Shown in pieces: positions 3,858 to 13,435 of a DNA stretch of 42,138 nt (position 1 is its first letter; each line of letters starts with the position of its first letter). Below the pieces are notes generated by a model, which was given only the letters and a program-made list of their open reading frames with translations, did no database searches and was not told the DNA's origin. The stretch lies in UHGV virus genome UHGV-0055357, one strand, 5' to 3'. The position numbers and the translations under genes were made by a program. This DNA is from a virus.

Positions 3858-4064
3858 TTAGTTAATTAACGGATTGCCTTTGCCATCCAATAGAATCTCA
3901 ACAAAATAATCTCTGACGGTTATATTGTCGCGCATATTCGTCATAACTAATTTCCCGCGAGTATTGGCGGTTGCTCTGTATACCCGGTCTTTATATCTGA
4001 CCATTGTTCCGGGTGTTGCACACTGCCGGATTACCTCCTGTGTGCCGTAGTGTTGGTGTTTCAT
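3858..4064 (-). CDS. hypothetical early protein
   Basis: ORF track, 68 aa. 4-nt overlap with the upstream ORF 4061-4411. Confidence 0.45.
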   Translation of the reverse strand: MKHQHYGTQEVIRQCATPGTMVRYKDRVYRATANTRGKLVMTNMRDNITVRDYFVEILLDGKGNPLIN

Positions 4065-4411
4065 GAATTGATTGCCTCACCTTTTTCAGTCGTCGCCGTA
4101 TGCGCCAGGGTGATTTGTGACTTCGCCACTTTTGCTGAATTTATTTCCAGTGCCTCTTTATGTGCTTGTGCCAGATAGTCAGTCCGGCAATCCTCGTCCA
4201 GCGTGTGCCACCATCGCCAGTAACGGTAGGCTAGCTCCATGCGTCTTTTTTCCATTTCCAGCGCTTCGGCGTGGGCCGCTTCAATTGCCGCATCAATATC
4301 CACTTTCCAGGCGAGAGCTGCCGGGATATTGCGATCGCCGATTGCGTCGTCGCGGTGTTCAATCATGTCTTCAATCAGTTCTCTTTCGTTCGCTGGGCGT
4401 GACATTTGCAT
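4061..4411 (-). CDS. hypothetical early protein
   Basis: ORF track, 116 aa, Trp/Arg-rich centre. No family recognised. Confidence 0.5.
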   Translation of the reverse strand: MQMSRPANERELIEDMIEHRDDAIGDRNIPAALAWKVDIDAAIEAAHAEALEMEKRRMELAYRYWRWWHTLDEDCRTDYLAQAHKEALEINSAKVAKSQITLAHTATTEKGEAINS

Positions 4412-4862: not shown

Positions 4863-6017
4863 TTACGCTTTGTGTTTCTTAAAATTTTCGTCGTTTTGGA
4901 CGAAATGGAGAGAGTCCAGTATCAATCCCGCGATCCGCAGGATGTCCTCGGGTGAGTCCAGGTAAATGCGGTTGCCGTCTGCCTCCAGCCCGGCCCTGGA
5001 TATTTCATTGTAAATTACTGGTGTGAACTCAATAGGGAGTTGAATAGATGAGCGCAACTTTTTGTCATGATATCGAGCTATCCATCTATTTGTTTTTCCT
5101 TTAAATAGTACGGAAAAATAGGACTCTGTATCTTTGCCGTGTAAATCAACGTCTGCTCCCACAATGGCCTGGATTTTTTCGAACACCACCCGCTCGTTAT
5201 AGGTGGTGATAATATTTGGATTGTTGGGGTCGATAATATCAGCAGTCTCATCAATTACGGGTTCGTTGGCTGGATCTGGTTGCTGTACCACTTCCTCAAC
5301 TGCGGGATTGAACGACAGGCCGGATACCACCATTGCGCTGAGTGAGCGCTCTACTGCCTGTTTAACCAGCGGGGTAATTGACTCCAGAAATTTTTGGTTC
5401 AACTGACGTCCGATATTGGCATGGCTGGCAACATAACGAACAAAATCAACGTCAACCTCTTTGAGGCTTGCTGTGATAATTTTGGTGAATGACGATATGT
5501 AAACGCTTTCCTCCGCCAGAGTTCGTAGCGCCTCAGGCTTGAATTTATCGTGACGGAATCTAAAAAGCTGTTCGGCGTCAGCGTCTGAAATATCGTCCAT
5601 CACAACGCGTAAAAACGGCGTTGTGTCCATGATGTTTTTCTCTTTTAAATCAGTAAAAAAGCGCCACTCAACACCGTTAGTTATCGCGGAGATCGTAACT
5701 TCTGGAGTTGAGTTGAAATAGCGGGAGAGCTGCGGGCAATGGTTGTCGATTTTTTCCCGGCAGGATTTTGCTTCGATAAACATGACAGGCACACCCTGGC
5801 AGAATAGCGCGTAATCGACTCGCTCACCACTTTTGACGCCAGGGAAATCGGCGGCATACTCGGCTTTAACTTTCTGCGGATCGTAGGCATTAAAACCTAA
5901 AATATCTAAAAATGGCAGGATTAGCGCCTGTTTCGTGGTTTCTTCAGTTGTGCAGTGTTCCCTAACGTTTTTAACGTGTTCGATGTGATTTTTTAACTTT
6001 TGCTTAAAGCTTTCCAT
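4863..6017 (-). CDS. PD-(D/E)xK nuclease, HsdR-N-terminal-like restriction-endonuclease fold, with uncharacterised C-terminal domain
   Basis: 384 aa. N-terminal motifs ETTKQALILPFLDILGF … RVDYALF … VMFIEAK … QLSRY … ITNGVEWRFF match the D…E-x-K core of the type I HsdR N-terminal nuclease family. Same strand as the repressor and 31 bp downstream of it. Confidence 0.8.
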   Translation of the reverse strand: MESFKQKLKNHIEHVKNVREHCTTEETTKQALILPFLDILGFNAYDPQKVKAEYAADFPGVKSGERVDYALFCQGVPVMFIEAKSCREKIDNHCPQLSRYFNSTPEVTISAITNGVEWRFFTDLKEKNIMDTTPFLRVVMDDISDADAEQLFRFRHDKFKPEALRTLAEESVYISSFTKIITASLKEVDVDFVRYVASHANIGRQLNQKFLESITPLVKQAVERSLSAMVVSGLSFNPAVEEVVQQPDPANEPVIDETADIIDPNNPNIITTYNERVVFEKIQAIVGADVDLHGKDTESYFSVLFKGKTNRWIARYHDKKLRSSIQLPIEFTPVIYNEISRAGLEADGNRIYLDSPEDILRIAGLILDSLHFVQNDENFKKHKA

Positions 6018-6048: not shown

Positions 6049-6459
6049 TTATCTTTTGGACGCGCGCGACCTTGCTTTTAATAACTCACTGAGTCGAATT
6101 CTGTTGTTCTCCACCCTTAGCCGGAGGCTCTCAATTTCAGCCGCGCGGTCAGAGTCCGGTAATTGATCAAACAATTCCAGCAGTTCTTTTTGTTCGGGTG
6201 TTAACTGCTCTAAAAGATCGGGTTTTGGGGCTGGCTCCGTAGGGGTTTGATCCTCGTCACCAAACAGCAACCACGTCGGTGTGCACTGTAATCCGTCGGC
6301 AAGAGCAATAAGCCGCTTCCCCGCTGGCTGTGTCTCGTCTCGTTCCCACTGCGAAATAGTTACGTGAGCAACGCTGACAAGCTTGCCGAGGGCGGCTTGA
6401 GAGAGTTTCAGTTCTTTTCTCCGCTTGAGGAGGCGGGCACCAAAAGTTTCTTTTTTCAT
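6049..6459 (-). CDS. prophage repressor, XRE-family HTH, no S24 peptidase domain
   Basis: 136 aa. N-terminal HTH (LSQAALGKLVSVAHVTISQWE), helical C-terminus. Divergent from the Cro-like gene. No Ala-Gly/Ser-Lys autocleavage module. Confidence 0.85.
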   Translation of the reverse strand: MKKETFGARLLKRRKELKLSQAALGKLVSVAHVTISQWERDETQPAGKRLIALADGLQCTPTWLLFGDEDQTPTEPAPKPDLLEQLTPEQKELLELFDQLPDSDRAAEIESLRLRVENNRIRLSELLKARSRASKR

Positions 6460-6538: not shown

Positions 6539-6769
6539 GTGTACAAAAATGATGCAATTCGTTTTTTTGGAAATAAAACAAAAGTTGCTGCCGCTGCAGG
6601 TGTAAAACCTGCCTCCGTGTCGGTCTGGGGCGAACTGGTCCCAGAAAAAAATGCGGCGAAATTGCAAATGGTTTCTGGTGGCGTTCTGGTCTATGACCCT
6701 GAGATTTACGCTGAATATAAACGCAACCGCCGCGAGGAACTGAACAATGAAAATCAGTCCTCAAATTGA
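6539..6769 (+). CDS. Cro-like / YdaS-like small DNA-binding regulator
   Basis: 76 aa, GTG start with good ribosome-binding site. Divergent from repressor. AIRFFGNKTKVAAAAGVKPASVSVW resembles Cro/YdaS-type HTH proteins. Confidence 0.7.
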   Translation: MYKNDAIRFFGNKTKVAAAAGVKPASVSVWGELVPEKNAAKLQMVSGGVLVYDPEIYAEYKRNRREELNNENQSSN

Positions 6770-9215: not shown

Positions 9216-9464
9216 ATGAGTAAATCATTAGAAGATTTAAACGCTGTTCTTTTTTCGCAGATTGATAAGCTTTCCACGGAAGAGCCTGGAGATAAACTGT
9301 CAGAGGAGATTAAGCGCTCCAAGGCGATGGTGGGGGTAGCGGATACTATTATCGCAAACTCGCGTTTGGTATTCGATATCTATGAATCGCAAGGAGGCAT
9401 GAAATCTATAGAAAATCGACCGGACATTTTGCGAGTTAAAAAACATACTGGCAATGGGAAATAG
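9216..9464 (+). CDS. hypothetical protein
   Basis: ORF track, 82 aa. First gene of a tightly packed three-gene unit with the HNH and methyltransferase genes. Confidence 0.5.
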   Translation: MSKSLEDLNAVLFSQIDKLSTEEPGDKLSEEIKRSKAMVGVADTIIANSRLVFDIYESQGGMKSIENRPDILRVKKHTGNGK

Positions 9465-10005
9465 ATTTCATAAGTTCACGGAAGAGCAAAAATGCTGGTT
9501 ATTTATTCATAACGAGTTGTCTCGCAGAGAGGCAACTCGATTATTTAACCTGCGATTTCAAACGGAACTCATTGAACAGCAAATAATTAATTTCAGAAAA
9601 CGACACGCTTTGCTTACCGGGAGAACAGGACGGTTTGCTCCAGGGCAAAGCTCGCCATCTCTCTCGGGCGCAAAAGGTCCAAACAGGACGTCATTTAAGC
9701 GTGGACATACTCCAGCCAACAAAGCCCTGGTGGGGGAAGAGAGGGTGAGGGGGGGATACATTTACGTCAAAACGGTTGATGGGCGGTGGAAATTAAAACA
9801 TCGATTGCAGCATGGAGGGCAGGTAGTGAGGTTTTGGGATGGGGACGCAAACAATTTATCACCGGAAAATTTAATTCCAGTTACACGCTCCGAACATCTT
9901 ATTTTAAACAGAACGGGGTATTCACATACACCAGAACCCGTAAGGGATGCCCATATTGCCGTTGCAAAATTGAAAGCAAAGATCATTGAGGTAAAGAAAA
10001 AATGA
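9454..10005 (+). CDS. HNH endonuclease (HNH_3-like)
   Basis: 183 aa. HRLQHGGQVVRFWDGDANNLSPENLIPVTRSEH matches the HNH catalytic pattern (His, Asn-Asn, final Glu-His). 4-nt overlap with the downstream methyltransferase. Confidence 0.7.
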   Translation: MGNRFHKFTEEQKCWLFIHNELSRREATRLFNLRFQTELIEQQIINFRKRHALLTGRTGRFAPGQSSPSLSGAKGPNRTSFKRGHTPANKALVGEERVRGGYIYVKTVDGRWKLKHRLQHGGQVVRFWDGDANNLSPENLIPVTRSEHLILNRTGYSHTPEPVRDAHIAVAKLKAKIIEVKKK

Positions 10006-11534
10006 GCATTGCAAATGAACTCTGGCAGGCCGTTGACATATTGCGCGGAGAGGTAAAATCCTCAGAGTACGGAAAATATATTCTACCACTCGTTATCCTG
10101 CGCAGGATAGAGCAGGTTAGTGACGTGGAGACATTACATTCAATCACCACAGGTGCAGAACTAGCGCGGCATATAGCAACCCTTTCGGGTACAGTGCGGA
10201 ATATTTTATCCTGTTTTGATTTTGACAAAACAATCAATAAAACACATGACACAATAGTACAGCAGTTGGCCTTAGCGTTTTCCTGCATTGATGTTCACCC
10301 GGATCGCGTAAATTCTGGCGATATGGGCATGATATTTGAGGATATGATCCACCGTTTCGCGAGTGATGAAACGGCGGGCGAATTCTACACGCCAACGGAT
10401 ATAGTGAAACTGATTACAGAACTGGTGATTCCACTGGATATCTCCAGTGAGGTGGCAATATACGATCCGACCTGCGGGACGGGGGGGATACTCGGCGCGG
10501 CGGAGGAGGTTATTCGTACTCGCCGCCCTGGAGCTGACGTTACATTATATGGTCAGGAATTGAATCCCGAATCTTTCGCCATTTGCCGTGCAGATATGTT
10601 ATTGCGCGGCAGGGATCCTGAAAATATCAGGCTGGGCAATACATTATCCGAGGACAAACTGGCGGGGCGTACATTCGATTTTATTCTCTCTAATCCACCG
10701 TATGGGGTGGACTGGAAAAAAATCGATAAGCTTGTACGAGCTGAACACTGTCAGGGGTTTGCAGGCCGTTACCCAGCGGGGTTACCCCGTGTGTCGGACG
10801 GTTCTCTCCTGTTTGTGCAGCACGTTATCAGCAAGCTGGCACCGGGCGGTCGCGCAGGAATTGTACTCAACGGCTCGCCATTATTTACTGGTGGAGCGGG
10901 CAGTGGAGAGAGCCAAATTCGCAGACACATACTGGAAAACGACCTGCTGGATTGTATTATCGGACTGCCAAAAGACATGTTCTATAACACAGGGATCACC
11001 ACGTACATCTGGATACTGACAAATGAAAAGAGAGTAGAACGAAAAGGGCTGGTCACGCTAATTGATGCATCTGACCTATTTGAAAAAATGCGCAAATCTC
11101 AGGGCAATAAGCGCAATCAGCTGACTGACGCTCAGATCGCTGAAATCGTCAAGTTGTACCGTGATAATCAACCAGGTGAAAAAGTTAAGATTTTTCCGTA
11201 CACCGCTTTTGGTTTCCGCCGAATCACTGTTAAGCGCCCGGACGAGAACGGGAAACCCGATAAAAATAAACGCGATAATGAAAACGTGCCGCTGGGTGAG
11301 AATATCGACGCGTATTTTGCCAGAGAGGTTACGCCACACGTTCCTGACGCCTGGATTGACAGAAAGAAGCGAGATCCGGTTGACGGGGAGGTTGGGATTG
11401 TTGGCTATGAAATACCCTTTAATCGTCATTTTTATGTTTATGTCCCACCGCGTCCCCTTGAAGAAATTGACGCTGAGCTCGCGAGCGTAAGCCGTGAAAT
11501 TGCTGCAATGCTTGCCGAGATGCAAGCGTATTAG
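10002..11534 (+). CDS. N6-adenine DNA methyltransferase, HsdM-like, no adjacent specificity subunit
   Basis: 510 aa. SAM-binding motif I IYDPTCGTGGIL, catalytic motif IV SNPPYG, C-terminal GYEIPFNRHFYVY motif as in type I M subunits. No HsdS or HsdR helicase gene nearby. Confidence 0.85.
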   Translation: MSIANELWQAVDILRGEVKSSEYGKYILPLVILRRIEQVSDVETLHSITTGAELARHIATLSGTVRNILSCFDFDKTINKTHDTIVQQLALAFSCIDVHPDRVNSGDMGMIFEDMIHRFASDETAGEFYTPTDIVKLITELVIPLDISSEVAIYDPTCGTGGILGAAEEVIRTRRPGADVTLYGQELNPESFAICRADMLLRGRDPENIRLGNTLSEDKLAGRTFDFILSNPPYGVDWKKIDKLVRAEHCQGFAGRYPAGLPRVSDGSLLFVQHVISKLAPGGRAGIVLNGSPLFTGGAGSGESQIRRHILENDLLDCIIGLPKDMFYNTGITTYIWILTNEKRVERKGLVTLIDASDLFEKMRKSQGNKRNQLTDAQIAEIVKLYRDNQPGEKVKIFPYTAFGFRRITVKRPDENGKPDKNKRDNENVPLGENIDAYFAREVTPHVPDAWIDRKKRDPVDGEVGIVGYEIPFNRHFYVYVPPRPLEEIDAELASVSREIAAMLAEMQAY

Positions 11535-11908
11535 TCTTTTCTTGACGTTCATTTATTCATAATCATACCGTATGCATAAACGGTAAATATTGAGTGTGAT
11601 TATGGGTAAAGATGCTAACTATGACGTGGGCGTGAGCGGGGAGACGATGGGCTTTATAACGCCCAGAAAGTGGGTTTTTTCCAGCGAGCCAAAGTGTATG
11701 GTGGTGGGTGGTGGTTTGGCGGGCTTATCCTGATTGCTTTGTGTTCGAATTTGAGGCGCCCACGTCATTGAGCCAGGGGATCGCATACATTGCCAGCTAC
11801 AACAAAATGGCAGCAATGCCCGAATTCGACGACGACTTTCGGCTTGAACCCTGAGCTGCTCATATACGTTTTGAATAATTGCATTTACCCACAGTGTAGT
11901 TATTTGAG

Positions 11909-12553: not shown

Positions 12554-12662
12554 CAATAACCCCGTTTTGTCGGCAATAGGGGGTTTTGCCACTGTCCGCG
12601 ATAATTGCTGATTATTAAAATGCGCCCAATGTTTTTTATTGAGACGCTCCCGGATGAGGTTG

Positions 12663-12682
12663 TACTGTACAAATATACAGTA
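12663..12682. promoter_or_regulatory. LexA (SOS) box
   Basis: TACTGTACAAATATACAGTA matches the CTGT-N8-ACAG consensus with AT-rich centre. Sits 30 bp upstream of the ATG at 12712. Confidence 0.6.
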
Positions 12683-12711
12683 TTTATGTCTCTGATTTAG
12701 CGGGAGATATC

Positions 12712-12912
12712 ATGAAAATCATGAATGATTTAATACCGGACGCAGAGTGCCACACGGGCCTGGTACTGGTGAGAATAGAGGAAGGGCGCATTATTGGCGG
12801 CTTTGTCCTGCGGCCTGACCAATTCGTTACATCAATAACTGAACTGGAGGATGCACGAAAAATGGCAGGTTTGCCAGCATCCTCTTACACTCGCGGCGTA
12901 ACTGATTTATAA
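12712..12912 (+). CDS. small protein under the LexA box, candidate antirepressor
   Basis: 66 aa, GGGAGA ribosome-binding site. Functional call rests on the SOS box and the non-cleavable repressor, not on sequence similarity. Confidence 0.45.
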   Translation: MKIMNDLIPDAECHTGLVLVRIEEGRIIGGFVLRPDQFVTSITELEDARKMAGLPASSYTRGVTDL

Positions 12913-12973
12913 TATTCACCCGCGAGCCTGAACAACTCGCACTGAGTAACACTGTGCCAACGGAGCGATACCG

Positions 12974-13435
12974 ATGGCACTGCAATTCCCCCGTGACGGT
13001 CTGCGCCTTCACAAATCAAATTTTGCTGCGATAGGGCAGCAATTAACGCCGTTGTTAGAGTCGGGCGAATGCTATCGCCTGATTATCAAACCGTGGCGCG
13101 AAAAGCGATCTCTCTCTCAAAACGCGTTATTTCACGCGTGGATGAGCGAACTGAGCGCGTATCTCATTGCCCGCAATAAACCGTTTGCAACGCCAGAGTG
13201 GTGCAAAGACGCCCTCAAACACACGTATCTCGGCTACGAGTCTGTTGAGCGTGTTGATGTGATCACGGGCGATGTGACTGCGGTTCAAAATCTCCGGCAC
13301 ACGTCCGATCTCGACACTGGTGATATGCATGATTTTATGTGCCGCGTTGAGGCGTGGGCGCTAAATATCGGCTGTAAACTCCCGACTCCCCACGATTCTG
13401 AATTTATGCGCCTGCGCGAACGGCAGGAGGCGTAA
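12974..13435 (+). CDS. ninB: NinB / Orf-family recombination protein
   Basis: 153 aa. RSLSQNALFHAW matches the lambda NinB core motif RSLDQNRKLWAC. Confidence 0.8.
   Translation: MALQFPRDGLRLHKSNFAAIGQQLTPLLESGECYRLIIKPWREKRSLSQNALFHAWMSELSAYLIARNKPFATPEWCKDALKHTYLGYESVERVDVITGDVTAVQNLRHTSDLDTGDMHDFMCRVEAWALNIGCKLPTPHDSEFMRLRERQEA

What the first reader, a model, noticed from the sequence alone, without database searches (positions are those of the whole stretch)
12663..12912. Near-consensus LexA box upstream of a 66-aa ORF, with a repressor that lacks a self-cleavage domain
TACTGTACAAATATACAGTA at 12663-12682 fits the SOS-box consensus and sits 30 bp from the ATG at 12712. The prophage repressor (6049-6459) is HTH-only with no S24 peptidase module, so RecA-stimulated autocleavage is unlikely. 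In Gifsy-type and phage-186-type systems, induction depends on a LexA-controlled antirepressor encoded outside the immunity region. The 66-aa ORF is the obvious candidate.
Basis: partly seen in the sequence, partly recalled or inferred. Interest (0 to 1): 0.6.

Follow-up and report, generated by a model that had tools for sequence, protein, structure and literature searches.

The report
SOS-controlled Rem/GfoA-type prophage antirepressor gene
A near-perfect LexA (DNA-damage) operator sits on the promoter of a 66-residue gene that is a homologue of two proven small antirepressors (Rem of Qin, GfoA of Gifsy-1), in a prophage whose repressor is a DicA-type protein with no self-cleavage domain; this is a well-supported but ordinary new example of the known Gifsy-type induction switch.

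Summary
TACTGTACAAATATACAGTA (12663-12682) is the only strong LexA box in the window. It lies 29 nt before a 66-aa ORF (12712-12912) that has a good Shine-Dalgarno sequence. The repressor (6049-6459) has an HTH domain and no S24 peptidase domain.

- The ORF is homologous to Rem, the experimentally shown antirepressor of DicA (hhalign probability 97%). It falls in the same PHROG (phrog_340) as Rem and GfoA.
- The repressor is 49% identical to DicA over its full length.
- Of 85 related loci, 62 carry a LexA box of at least 20 bits within 900 nt upstream. No such site occurs in the other 1.48 Mb of those loci. Many have the Gifsy layout of box, dinI, antirepressor.
- Of 70 loci with enough upstream DNA, 63 carry a DicA-type short repressor.

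The most likely mechanism is this. DNA damage leads to LexA cleavage. The promoter, whose -10 hexamer is the first half of the box as in phage 186 p95, then fires. The antirepressor binds the repressor and lifts lysogenic repression.

This is a new, unannotated member of a known kind. In passing I found a conserved two-hairpin element, with compensatory base changes, immediately after the antirepressor gene in all these phages.

The parts
12663..12682 (.). LexA (SOS) box TACTGTACAAATATACAGTA
   Evidence: It has 2 mismatches to the 20-mer consensus, and 0 of 100 shuffles matched. It scores 26.1 bits on the weight matrix. Boxes of at least 20 bits lie upstream of homologues in 62 of 85 loci, and none occurs elsewhere in 1.48 Mb.
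12639..12668 (+). Putative sigma-70 promoter: -35 TTGAGA (12639-12644), 18-nt spacer, -10 TACTGT (12663-12668), which is the first half of the LexA box
   Evidence: Read from the sequence. The -35 hexamer is conserved in L012. The architecture matches the annotated SOS promoter p95 of phage 186, where the -10 is also the TACTGT of the LexA box after an 18-nt spacer. The simple promoter scan did not list it because its -10 hexamer does not meet that scan's criteria. This part is inferred.
12702..12707 (+). Shine-Dalgarno sequence GGGAGA, 4 nt before the ATG
   Evidence: It is conserved in L012, L004 and L007.
12712..12912 (+). 66-aa Rem/GfoA-family small antirepressor gene (candidate)
   Evidence: ORF. 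The family alignment shows a conserved GF-LR-DEFVTS core. Homology to Rem is shown, and to phrog_340. The AlphaFold2 model has a beta hairpin at 18-32 and a helix at 42-51, with pLDDT 74.
6049..6459 (-). DicA-type prophage repressor, 136 aa, HTH plus a helical C-terminal region, no S24 domain (presumed target)
   Evidence: Pfam finds HTH_3 only. It is 49% identical to DicA, E 3e-46, and 28% identical to GtgR. In the PDB it matches only the N-terminal domain of P22 C2.
6539..6769 (+). Cro-like gene, divergent from the repressor; marks the immunity region about 6.2 kb from the antirepressor gene
   Evidence: P22_Cro, E 8.9e-15. Annotated as a Cro/CI family regulator.
12558..12588 (+). Terminator-like hairpin AACCCC...GGGGGTTTT after the upstream 214-aa gene; would insulate the LexA promoter from upstream transcription
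   Evidence: The fold energy is not better than shuffles (z -0.35), so this is weak.
12917..12981 (+). Conserved two-hairpin element after the antirepressor gene. Hairpin 1: arms 12922-12926 and 12936-12940, loop CCTGAACAA. Hairpin 2: arms 12954-12959 and 12975-12980, enclosing the SD sequence and start codon of the next gene.
   Evidence: RNAalifold predicts the same structure that I specified. 96.5% of cells are paired and 6 of 11 pairs show compensatory changes. The covariance model finds one copy per phage, always at this position. The window's own fold has z -2.97.
12974..13435 (+). NinB/YbcN-like gene immediately downstream, probably co-transcribed; no terminator was found between it and the antirepressor gene
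   Evidence: NinB Pfam hit and phrog_72. The scan found no + strand terminator in 12912-12974.

Best explanation
The 66-aa ORF (12712-12912) encodes a small antirepressor of the Rem/GfoA family, and its promoter is repressed directly by host LexA.

In the lysogen, LexA bound at 12663-12682 covers the -10 hexamer (TACTGT) and keeps the gene off. DNA damage activates RecA, LexA cleaves itself, and the promoter fires. The antirepressor then accumulates and binds the prophage's DicA-type repressor (6049-6459), which has no S24 self-cleavage domain. The repressor comes off its operators, so the early lytic operons are expressed. The same transcript probably continues into the NinB-like, NinG and Q-like genes.

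Shown here: the box; its family-wide conservation upstream of homologues; homology of the ORF to Rem and its placement in the same PHROG profile family as GfoA; homology of the repressor to DicA and GtgR; the absence of an S24 domain; and the co-occurrence of the two gene families.

Inferred: LexA binding, the promoter position, physical binding of the two proteins, and the requirement of this gene for induction.
For: Box quality and uniqueness.

Box conservation: 62 of 85 loci (36 of 52 clusters at 95% identity) have a box of at least 20 bits within 900 nt upstream. None occurs in the remaining 1.48 Mb. In the group with the box 355-400 nt upstream, a dinI homologue sits between box and gene, which is the Gifsy operon layout (PMC3121763).

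Homology of the ORF: BLASTP to Rem E 7e-9; hhalign 97.3%. phrog_340 is shared with Rem and GfoA.

Experimental precedent: Rem derepresses the DicA-controlled dicBp promoter 165-fold (PMC10448788). GfoA and GftA bind their repressors, which are not cleaved on induction (PMC3121763).

Repressor: 49% identical to DicA, with no S24 domain.

Co-occurrence: a DicA-type repressor is present in 63 of 70 loci with at least 7 kb of upstream DNA. Only one locus gave an S24-domain hit.

Position: the gene occupies the same slot, just before the nin/Q genes, as rem in Qin, gftA in Gifsy-2 and gfoA.

Promoter: the architecture is the same as the annotated p95 of phage 186.
Against: There is no experimental evidence for this locus or for this short (60-66 aa) subfamily. 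All 279 database clusters are labelled 'hypothetical'.

Pairwise BLASTP to GfoA and GftA finds nothing. A direct profile comparison with close GfoA relatives is weak (P 0.0017, probability 15%). The link to GfoA therefore runs through phrog_340 and Rem.

Rem itself and its close relatives in functional phages have no LexA box. About 30% of clusters in this subfamily also lack one. LexA control is therefore common but not universal.

Antirepressor and repressor sequences do not co-vary (Mantel rho 0.11). Identical antirepressors sit with repressors only 52% identical to each other. Specific pairing is therefore not demonstrated.

The promoter hexamers are read by eye.
Confidence: 0.8

Rival explanations
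1. The protein is a LexA-controlled antirepressor, but its main targets are DicA-type repressors of other prophages in the same cell, including cryptic ones such as Qin. It would then be dispensable for induction of its own prophage, as FsoA of Fels-1 is.
For: Antirepressor and repressor sequences are uncoupled: 100%-identical antirepressors occur with repressors 52% identical to each other, and the window and L012 are 97% versus 51% identical. Cross-reaction between heteroimmune Gifsy phages, and FsoA acting on a foreign repressor, are documented in PMC3121763.
Against: The prophage's own repressor is DicA-type and has no self-cleavage domain, so it needs some inducer. No other LexA-controlled gene or antirepressor candidate was found in the window; the only other LexA-like site scores 17.3 bits and lies inside a gene. 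Acting in trans does not exclude acting on its own repressor.
Confidence: 0.12
2. The LexA-controlled promoter mainly provides SOS-dependent transcription of the downstream nin and Q-like genes, giving late-gene or recombination functions directly. The 66-aa protein would be an accessory product with a role other than antirepression.
For: No terminator was found between the ORF and the NinB-like gene. NinG and a DUF1133 Q-like gene follow on the same strand. A conserved structured element joins the ORF to the next gene.
Against: Homology to Rem, a proven antirepressor, is strong. [quoted passage not shown] In relatives the LexA box stays with the antirepressor gene while the downstream gene changes.
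Confidence: 0.05
3. The box is a chance or decayed palindrome with no regulatory role, and induction of this prophage proceeds by another route or not at all.
For: The 97%-identical homologue in L012 has a much weaker box, 17.3 bits. About 30% of clusters have none.
Against: The box scores 26.1 bits, within the top of genuine SOS boxes. None of 100 shuffles gave a match. No site of at least 20 bits occurs in 1.48 Mb of control sequence, against 62 of 85 upstream regions. Its position on a plausible -10 hexamer matches phage 186 p95.
Confidence: 0.03

Closest known systems
Rem / DicA of cryptic prophage Qin, E. coli K-12 (Ragunathan & Vanderpool 2023, PMC10448788)
   Same: The 66-aa protein is homologous to the C-terminal 45 residues of Rem (36% identity, hhalign 97%). 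The repressor is 49% identical to DicA over its full length. The gene sits in the same slot just upstream of the nin/Q genes and is followed by the same two-hairpin element.
   Different: Rem is 83 aa and has an N-terminal extension that is absent here. Rem, in Qin and in the functional phages mEp460_ev081 and PPompW, has no LexA box and is preceded by a hok/mok module. That paper states that the signal inducing Rem is unknown. Here the signal can be read from the sequence as SOS.
GfoA/GfhA and GftA antirepressors of Salmonella Gifsy-1, -3 and -2 (Lemire, Figueroa-Bossi & Bossi 2011, PMC3121763)
   Same: The logic is the same: a short repressor that is not cleaved, and a small antirepressor encoded outside the immunity region under a LexA box, between the replication genes and NinG/Q. 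GfoA belongs to the same PHROG. Many relatives of the window gene have the Gifsy layout of box, dinI, antirepressor.
   Different: There is no pairwise similarity to GfoA or GftA. In the window there is no dinI in front, and the downstream gene is NinB-like, not irsA. The start codon is ATG rather than GTG or TTG.
Tum of coliphage 186 (p95 SOS operon)
   Same: It is a LexA-repressed antirepressor of a CI that is not cleaved. The promoter architecture is identical: the -10 hexamer TACTGT is the first half of the LexA box, with an 18-nt spacer.
   Different: No homology (hhalign probability 0.2%). Tum is 146 aa with a DinI-like C-terminal half. Phage 186 is P2-like, not lambdoid.
P22 Ant / SPC32H Ant and N15 AntC (large antirepressors)
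   Same: These proteins also inactivate a repressor by binding it. Some are LexA-controlled (from my own knowledge and the discussion in PMC3121763).
   Different: They are much larger, unrelated proteins. The 66-aa protein hits no Pfam family, so no ANT or Bro-N hit was returned. It matches nothing in the PDB by sequence or fold.

Membership tests
Rem/GfoA small antirepressors (phrog_340; tagged PF27490 in the protein database) | Sequence homology to an experimentally proven member | tested here: met
   BLASTP to Rem E 7e-9. hhalign probability 97.3%, E 2e-11. phrog_340 E 4.4e-10 for the window protein, 4.4e-21 for Rem and 7.6e-21 for GfoA.
Rem/GfoA small antirepressors (phrog_340; tagged PF27490 in the protein database) | Small size (about 60-85 aa) and a location outside the immunity region, between the replication genes and NinG/Q | tested here: met
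   The protein is 66 aa. The gene lies 6.2 kb from the repressor, and NinB-like, NinG and Q-like genes follow it. The slot is the same as in Qin, Gifsy-2 and the Gifsy-1-like locus.
Rem/GfoA small antirepressors (phrog_340; tagged PF27490 in the protein database) | Cognate repressor is a short DicA/GfoR/GtgR-type HTH protein without an S24 peptidase domain | tested here: met
   The co-occurrence holds in 63 of 70 related loci.
Rem/GfoA small antirepressors (phrog_340; tagged PF27490 in the protein database) | Binds the repressor and releases it from DNA; expression alone induces the prophage | not testable with these tools
This needs a pull-down, size-exclusion chromatography or EMSA, and expression from PBAD.
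Gifsy-type LexA-regulated dinI-antirepressor-irsA operon | LexA box on the operon promoter | tested here: met
   A 26.1-bit box overlaps the putative -10 hexamer. Actual LexA binding was not tested.
Gifsy-type LexA-regulated dinI-antirepressor-irsA operon | dinI homologue as the first gene and irsA as the gene after the antirepressor | tested here: not met
   In the window no ORF lies between the box and the gene. The downstream gene is NinB-like and shows no similarity to Gifsy-2 IrsA (E 0.2). Relatives in the group with the box 355-400 nt upstream do have dinI.
E. coli LexA operator (SOS box) | Palindrome CTGT-N8-ACAG with an AT-rich spacer, close to TACTGTATATATATACAGTA | tested here: met
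   2 mismatches in 20 positions, and the core is perfect.
E. coli LexA operator (SOS box) | Overlaps or adjoins a promoter, and is conserved upstream of orthologues | tested here: met
   The overlap with a -10 hexamer is inferred, by the phage 186 p95 analogy. Conservation upstream of homologues is shown.
E. coli LexA operator (SOS box) | Bound by LexA; gene induced by DNA damage in a manner that depends on lexA+ and recA+ | not testable with these tools
   Needs EMSA or footprinting and reporter assays.
Phage 186 Tum family | Homology to Tum, including its DinI-like C-terminal half | tested here: not met
   hhalign probability 0.2%. No Pfam family of any kind, DinI included, was returned at significant E-values.

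The most novel reading that the evidence does not exclude
The short (60-66 aa) Rem-like subfamily may be broad-spectrum, SOS-triggered antirepressors that recognise a conserved surface of all DicA-type repressors. One LexA-controlled gene would then co-induce heteroimmune prophages. It would also derepress cryptic elements such as Qin (the dicBF cell-division inhibitors), supplying the 'missing signal' for Rem/DicA-type switches.

In addition, the conserved two-hairpin element that follows every antirepressor gene (Rem, GfoA and GftA alike) may be a previously undescribed cis-regulatory RNA. It could gate expression of the downstream nin/Q genes from the antirepressor transcript.
Probability: 0.3. 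Interest if true: 0.6.

Novelty: new member of a known kind. Interest (0 to 1): 0.4.

Why it matters
The result explains how this E. coli prophage, from a pork isolate named STEC384, is probably induced by DNA damage even though its repressor cannot cleave itself.

It gives a function to a family of 279 protein clusters in Enterobacterales that are all labelled 'hypothetical'.

It shows that in most members of this subfamily the inducing signal is SOS. For the founding E. coli member, Rem, the signal is still unknown.

Identical antirepressors occur with divergent DicA-type repressors. This predicts cross-induction between co-resident prophages, which matters for the spread of prophage-borne virulence genes under antibiotics that trigger the SOS response.

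None of this changes the known paradigm.

Tried and rejected
- **Pairwise BLASTP.** The 66-aa protein found nothing against GftA or GfoA. A profile comparison with close GfoA relatives was weak. I therefore do not claim direct homology to GfoA beyond shared membership of phrog_340.
- **Word-indexed protein search.** A search with the single sequence found only one relative. The exhaustive search found 8 representatives, and a profile search was needed to reach 279 clusters.
- **Searches against annotated collections.** DNA searches of the phage collection and a protein search of the plasmid collection found nothing. A protein search of the phage collection found one unannotated Klebsiella phage homologue.
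- **Pfam.** The local copy has no family for the protein. The database tag PF27490 is not in that copy and appears in no paper.
- **Structure.** The AlphaFold2 model is a small beta hairpin plus helix (pLDDT 74). It gave no meaningful PDB fold match and no PDB sequence match.
- **Tum of phage 186.** I considered it as a relative and rejected it.
- **IrsA.** I considered it as the identity of the downstream gene and rejected it.
- **nut/boxB reading of the two-hairpin element.** I rejected it because there is one copy per phage, no boxA, and a 7-9 nt loop. Rfam has no match.
- **Co-variation of antirepressor and repressor.** I tested for it as evidence of specific pairing and did not find it.

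Full report
**Where the window comes from.** The segment 12560-12975 is 100% identical to the chromosomes of two E. coli pork isolates, STEC384 and STEC379. It is absent from the other 5,424 complete E. coli genomes. The surrounding annotation is that of a lambdoid prophage. In order it has Gam, a divergent repressor/Cro pair, a YdaT/CII-like gene, O- and P-like replication genes, an orphan DNA methyltransferase, NinB/YbcN-like and NinG genes, a DUF1133 Q-like gene, lysis genes and terminase.

**The observation.** TACTGTACAAATATACAGTA lies at 12663-12682.
- It has 2 mismatches to the 20-mer SOS consensus. It is the only match with up to 3 mismatches in the window, and none of 100 shuffles produced one.
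- The looser core CTGT-N8-ACAG also occurs only here, but that pattern alone is not rare by chance.
The site scores 26.1 bits. The perfect consensus scores 30.1 and the training boxes 13-27.
- The ORF starts at ATG 12712, 29 nt after the box. GGGAGA lies 4 nt upstream of the ATG, and there is no earlier in-frame start.
- The repressor ORF (6049-6459, minus strand, 136 aa) hits only HTH families in Pfam, with no S24 peptidase. In the PDB it resembles only the N-terminal domain of P22 C2.

**What the 66-aa protein is.** It is a real, conserved protein.
- An exhaustive search of 1.8 billion representatives found 8 relatives. A profile search found 279 clusters, all in Enterobacterales and all 'hypothetical', most of them tagged PF27490. 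The conserved core is G-x4-GF-x-LR-x-DEFVTS-x7-A-x3-AG.
- Its best PHROG is phrog_340, of unknown function (E 4.4e-10).
- I read the sequence of GfoA, the Gifsy-1 antirepressor, from an IMG/VR Salmonella prophage, using the published cloning primer (PMC3121763). GfoA hits the same phrog_340 at E 7.6e-21.
- A later paper (PMC10448788) used GfoA to find Rem of the cryptic prophage Qin. It showed that Rem derepresses the DicA-controlled dicBp promoter 165-fold. Rem also hits phrog_340 (E 4.4e-21).
- Rem aligns directly with the window protein: BLASTP E 7e-9, 36% identity over 44 residues, and profile against sequence at 97.3% probability, E 2e-11.
- Pairwise BLASTP to GfoA and GftA finds nothing. 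A direct profile comparison with close GfoA relatives is weak. The firm homology is therefore to Rem, and the link to GfoA is at the level of the shared PHROG.
- The AlphaFold2 model is a beta hairpin (18-32) followed by a helix (42-51), with mean pLDDT 74. It resembles nothing in the PDB by fold or sequence.

**What the repressor is.** It is 49% identical to DicA over its whole length (E 3e-46). It is 28% identical to the Gifsy-2 repressor GtgR, including the C-terminal LLxLFxxLP motif. Lemire et al. showed that Gifsy repressors of this type are not cleaved on induction. They are inactivated by binding of the antirepressor, in a complex of a size consistent with an A2B2 heterotetramer (PMC3121763).

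**Comparative tests.** I collected 8 genomic loci and 80 IMG/VR loci that encode relatives of the 66-aa protein.

1. *LexA boxes.*
   - Of 85 loci with at least 450 nt of upstream DNA, 62 have a box of at least 20 bits within 900 nt upstream. After clustering at 95% identity, this is 36 of 52 clusters.
   - Not one site of at least 20 bits occurs in the remaining 1.48 Mb of the same loci.
   - The boxes sit at a few characteristic distances. Some lie 30-49 nt upstream, directly in front of the gene as in the window. Others lie about 140 nt upstream, or 355-400 nt upstream.
   - In the 355-400 nt group the intervening gene is a DinI homologue, which reproduces the Gifsy arrangement of LexA box, dinI, antirepressor (compare Gifsy-2).
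2. *Repressor type.* Of 70 loci with at least 7 kb of upstream DNA, 63 carry a full-length DicA-type short repressor 2.5-9 kb upstream on the opposite strand. Hits to P22 C2 cover only its HTH domain. Only one locus gave a hit to an S24 domain.
3. *Specificity.* Antirepressor identity and repressor identity are essentially uncorrelated across 52 distinct pairs (Mantel rho 0.11). Identical antirepressors occur with repressors only 52% identical to each other. The window and L012 share 97% of antirepressor residues but only 51% of repressor residues. This gives no support for one-to-one co-evolution. It fits the broad, cross-reacting specificity reported for GfoA and GfhA.
4. *Rem itself.* Rem proper, in Qin and in the functional phages mEp460_ev081, PPompW and a Rac-like element, has no LexA box. 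It is preceded by a hok/mok module. LexA control therefore marks the short subfamily and the Gifsy genes, not the whole family.

**Promoter.** TTGAGA (12639-12644), an 18-nt spacer and TACTGT (12663-12668) form a plausible sigma-70 promoter whose -10 hexamer is the first half of the LexA box. The annotated SOS promoter p95 of phage 186 has exactly this design: -35, an 18-nt spacer, and a -10 TACTGT that is the start of the LexA site. LexA bound there would block open-complex formation. This step is inferred. A terminator-like hairpin at 12558-12588 may insulate the promoter from upstream transcription, but its predicted stability is no better than that of shuffled sequence. No terminator was found between the ORF and the NinB-like gene, so the SOS transcript probably continues into the nin/Q region.

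**Mechanism proposed.**
- DNA damage leads to RecA-stimulated cleavage of LexA (established knowledge).
- The promoter at 12639-12668 is derepressed (inferred from the position of the box).
- The 66-aa Rem-like protein is synthesised (the ORF and Shine-Dalgarno sequence are shown).
- The protein binds the DicA-type repressor, which comes off its operators (inferred from homology to Rem and from the behaviour of GfoA/GftA in PMC3121763).
- The early operons are expressed and the lytic cycle starts.

Because no proteolysis of the repressor is involved, the switch is reversible in principle, as Lemire et al. noted for Gifsy phages.

**Rivals.**
- The protein may act mainly in trans on other DicA-type repressors. 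The lack of co-variation makes cross-talk likely, but that does not exclude action on its own repressor.
- The promoter may chiefly serve the downstream nin/Q genes. Against this, the LexA box stays with the antirepressor gene across relatives while the downstream gene changes.
- The box may be chance. The statistics above argue strongly against this.

**Comparison with known systems.** This is the Gifsy-type induction logic, carried out with a Rem-type protein and a DicA-type repressor, on a promoter built like p95 of phage 186.
- It is not a Tum homologue.
- It lacks the dinI and irsA partners of the Gifsy operon.
- It lacks Rem's N-terminal extension.

I file it as a new member of a known kind. 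The modest new content is that a large, unannotated subfamily can now be read as SOS-controlled antirepressors, whereas the trigger for Rem itself is still unknown.

**Seen in passing: a conserved two-hairpin element.** The 60 nt after the antirepressor stop codon are conserved in almost all related loci. They are also conserved after rem in Qin, gftA in Gifsy-2 and gfoA in Gifsy-1-like prophages, although the next gene differs. The element has two hairpins.
- *Hairpin 1.* The loop sequence CUGAACA is almost invariant (a single substitution in two of the 29 aligned sequences, L007 and Qin), while the stem changes by compensatory substitutions.
- *Hairpin 2.* It holds the Shine-Dalgarno sequence of the next gene in its loop and the AUG in its 3' arm.
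- *Support for the structure.* RNAalifold independently returns the structure I specified. 96.5% of cells are paired and 6 of 11 pairs have compensatory changes. Controls with one arm shifted give 18-48% paired.
- *Copy number.* A covariance model finds exactly one copy per phage, always at this junction.
- *Known families.* Rfam has nothing similar.

Its function is unknown. Translational or processing control of the gene downstream of the antirepressor is the simplest guess.

Noticed in passing
window 12917-12981 (hairpin 1 arms 12922-12926 and 12936-12940; hairpin 2 arms 12954-12959 and 12975-12980): A conserved two-hairpin element lies immediately after the antirepressor gene. The loop CUGAACA is almost invariant, and the stems change by compensatory substitutions. 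The second hairpin encloses the Shine-Dalgarno sequence and start codon of the next gene. There is one copy per phage, and it also follows rem (Qin, mEp460), gftA (Gifsy-2) and gfoA. Rfam has no match.
   Followed up: partly
window 12560-12720 compared with L012 9849-10009: The two upstream regions are nearly identical, but their substitutions cluster inside and beside the LexA box. The CTGT/ACAG core is kept, while the score falls from 26.1 bits in the window to 17.3 bits in L012. This suggests tuning of LexA affinity, and so of the induction threshold, between otherwise identical modules.
   Followed up: partly
window 4133-4152: A second, weaker LexA-like site, TGCTGAATTTATTTCCAGTG (17.3 bits), lies inside the 116-aa ORF 4061-4411 (minus strand) of the early-left region. 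Sites of this strength occur by chance at roughly 0.3 per 42 kb in the related loci, so it may be fortuitous.
   Followed up: no
L150 (Qin), L153 (mEp460_ev081), L154 (PPompW), L155 (Rac-like): Rem proper has no LexA box within the sequence examined and is always preceded by a hok/mok (gef) toxin module. This agrees with the published statement that its inducing signal is unknown.
   Followed up: partly
window 4863-6017 (-), 9454-10005 (+), 10002-11534 (+): A 384-aa gene with a type I restriction HSDR_N-like domain lies directly downstream of the repressor on the same strand, in a rexAB-like position. It may be a defence gene expressed in the lysogen. Separately, an HNH endonuclease gene and an orphan HsdM-like N6-adenine methyltransferase gene sit between the replication genes and the antirepressor module.
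   Followed up: no
window 11590-11854; L004 9287-9538: Two overlapping short ORFs in the window together resemble a single 83-aa ORF in Superficieibacter locus L004. That ORF is itself preceded by a 27.7-bit LexA box. The window copy looks frameshifted and has no box.
   Followed up: no
L002 6690-6940 (Klebsiella phage ST405-OXA48phi1.2): The homologue here (L002 7001-7183) is unannotated in GenBank and has no LexA box. Instead, three direct repeats of AAATAGGGGGTTG, spaced about 115 nt apart, precede it. The window has a single AATAGGGGGTT at about 12575, inside the terminator-like hairpin.
   Followed up: no
window 12687-12709: The leader of the 66-aa ORF can fold so that UGUCUCU pairs with the Shine-Dalgarno sequence GGGAGA (7 bp, -10.7 kcal/mol for the 48-nt stretch, z -1.56, not significant). 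It might damp leaky translation of the antirepressor.
   Followed up: no
L071, L074, L078, L079, about 839 nt upstream of the homologue: Some relatives carry two strong LexA boxes. The distal one precedes a 109-aa ORF that I did not characterise, and lies upstream of the dinI-antirepressor pair.
   Followed up: no
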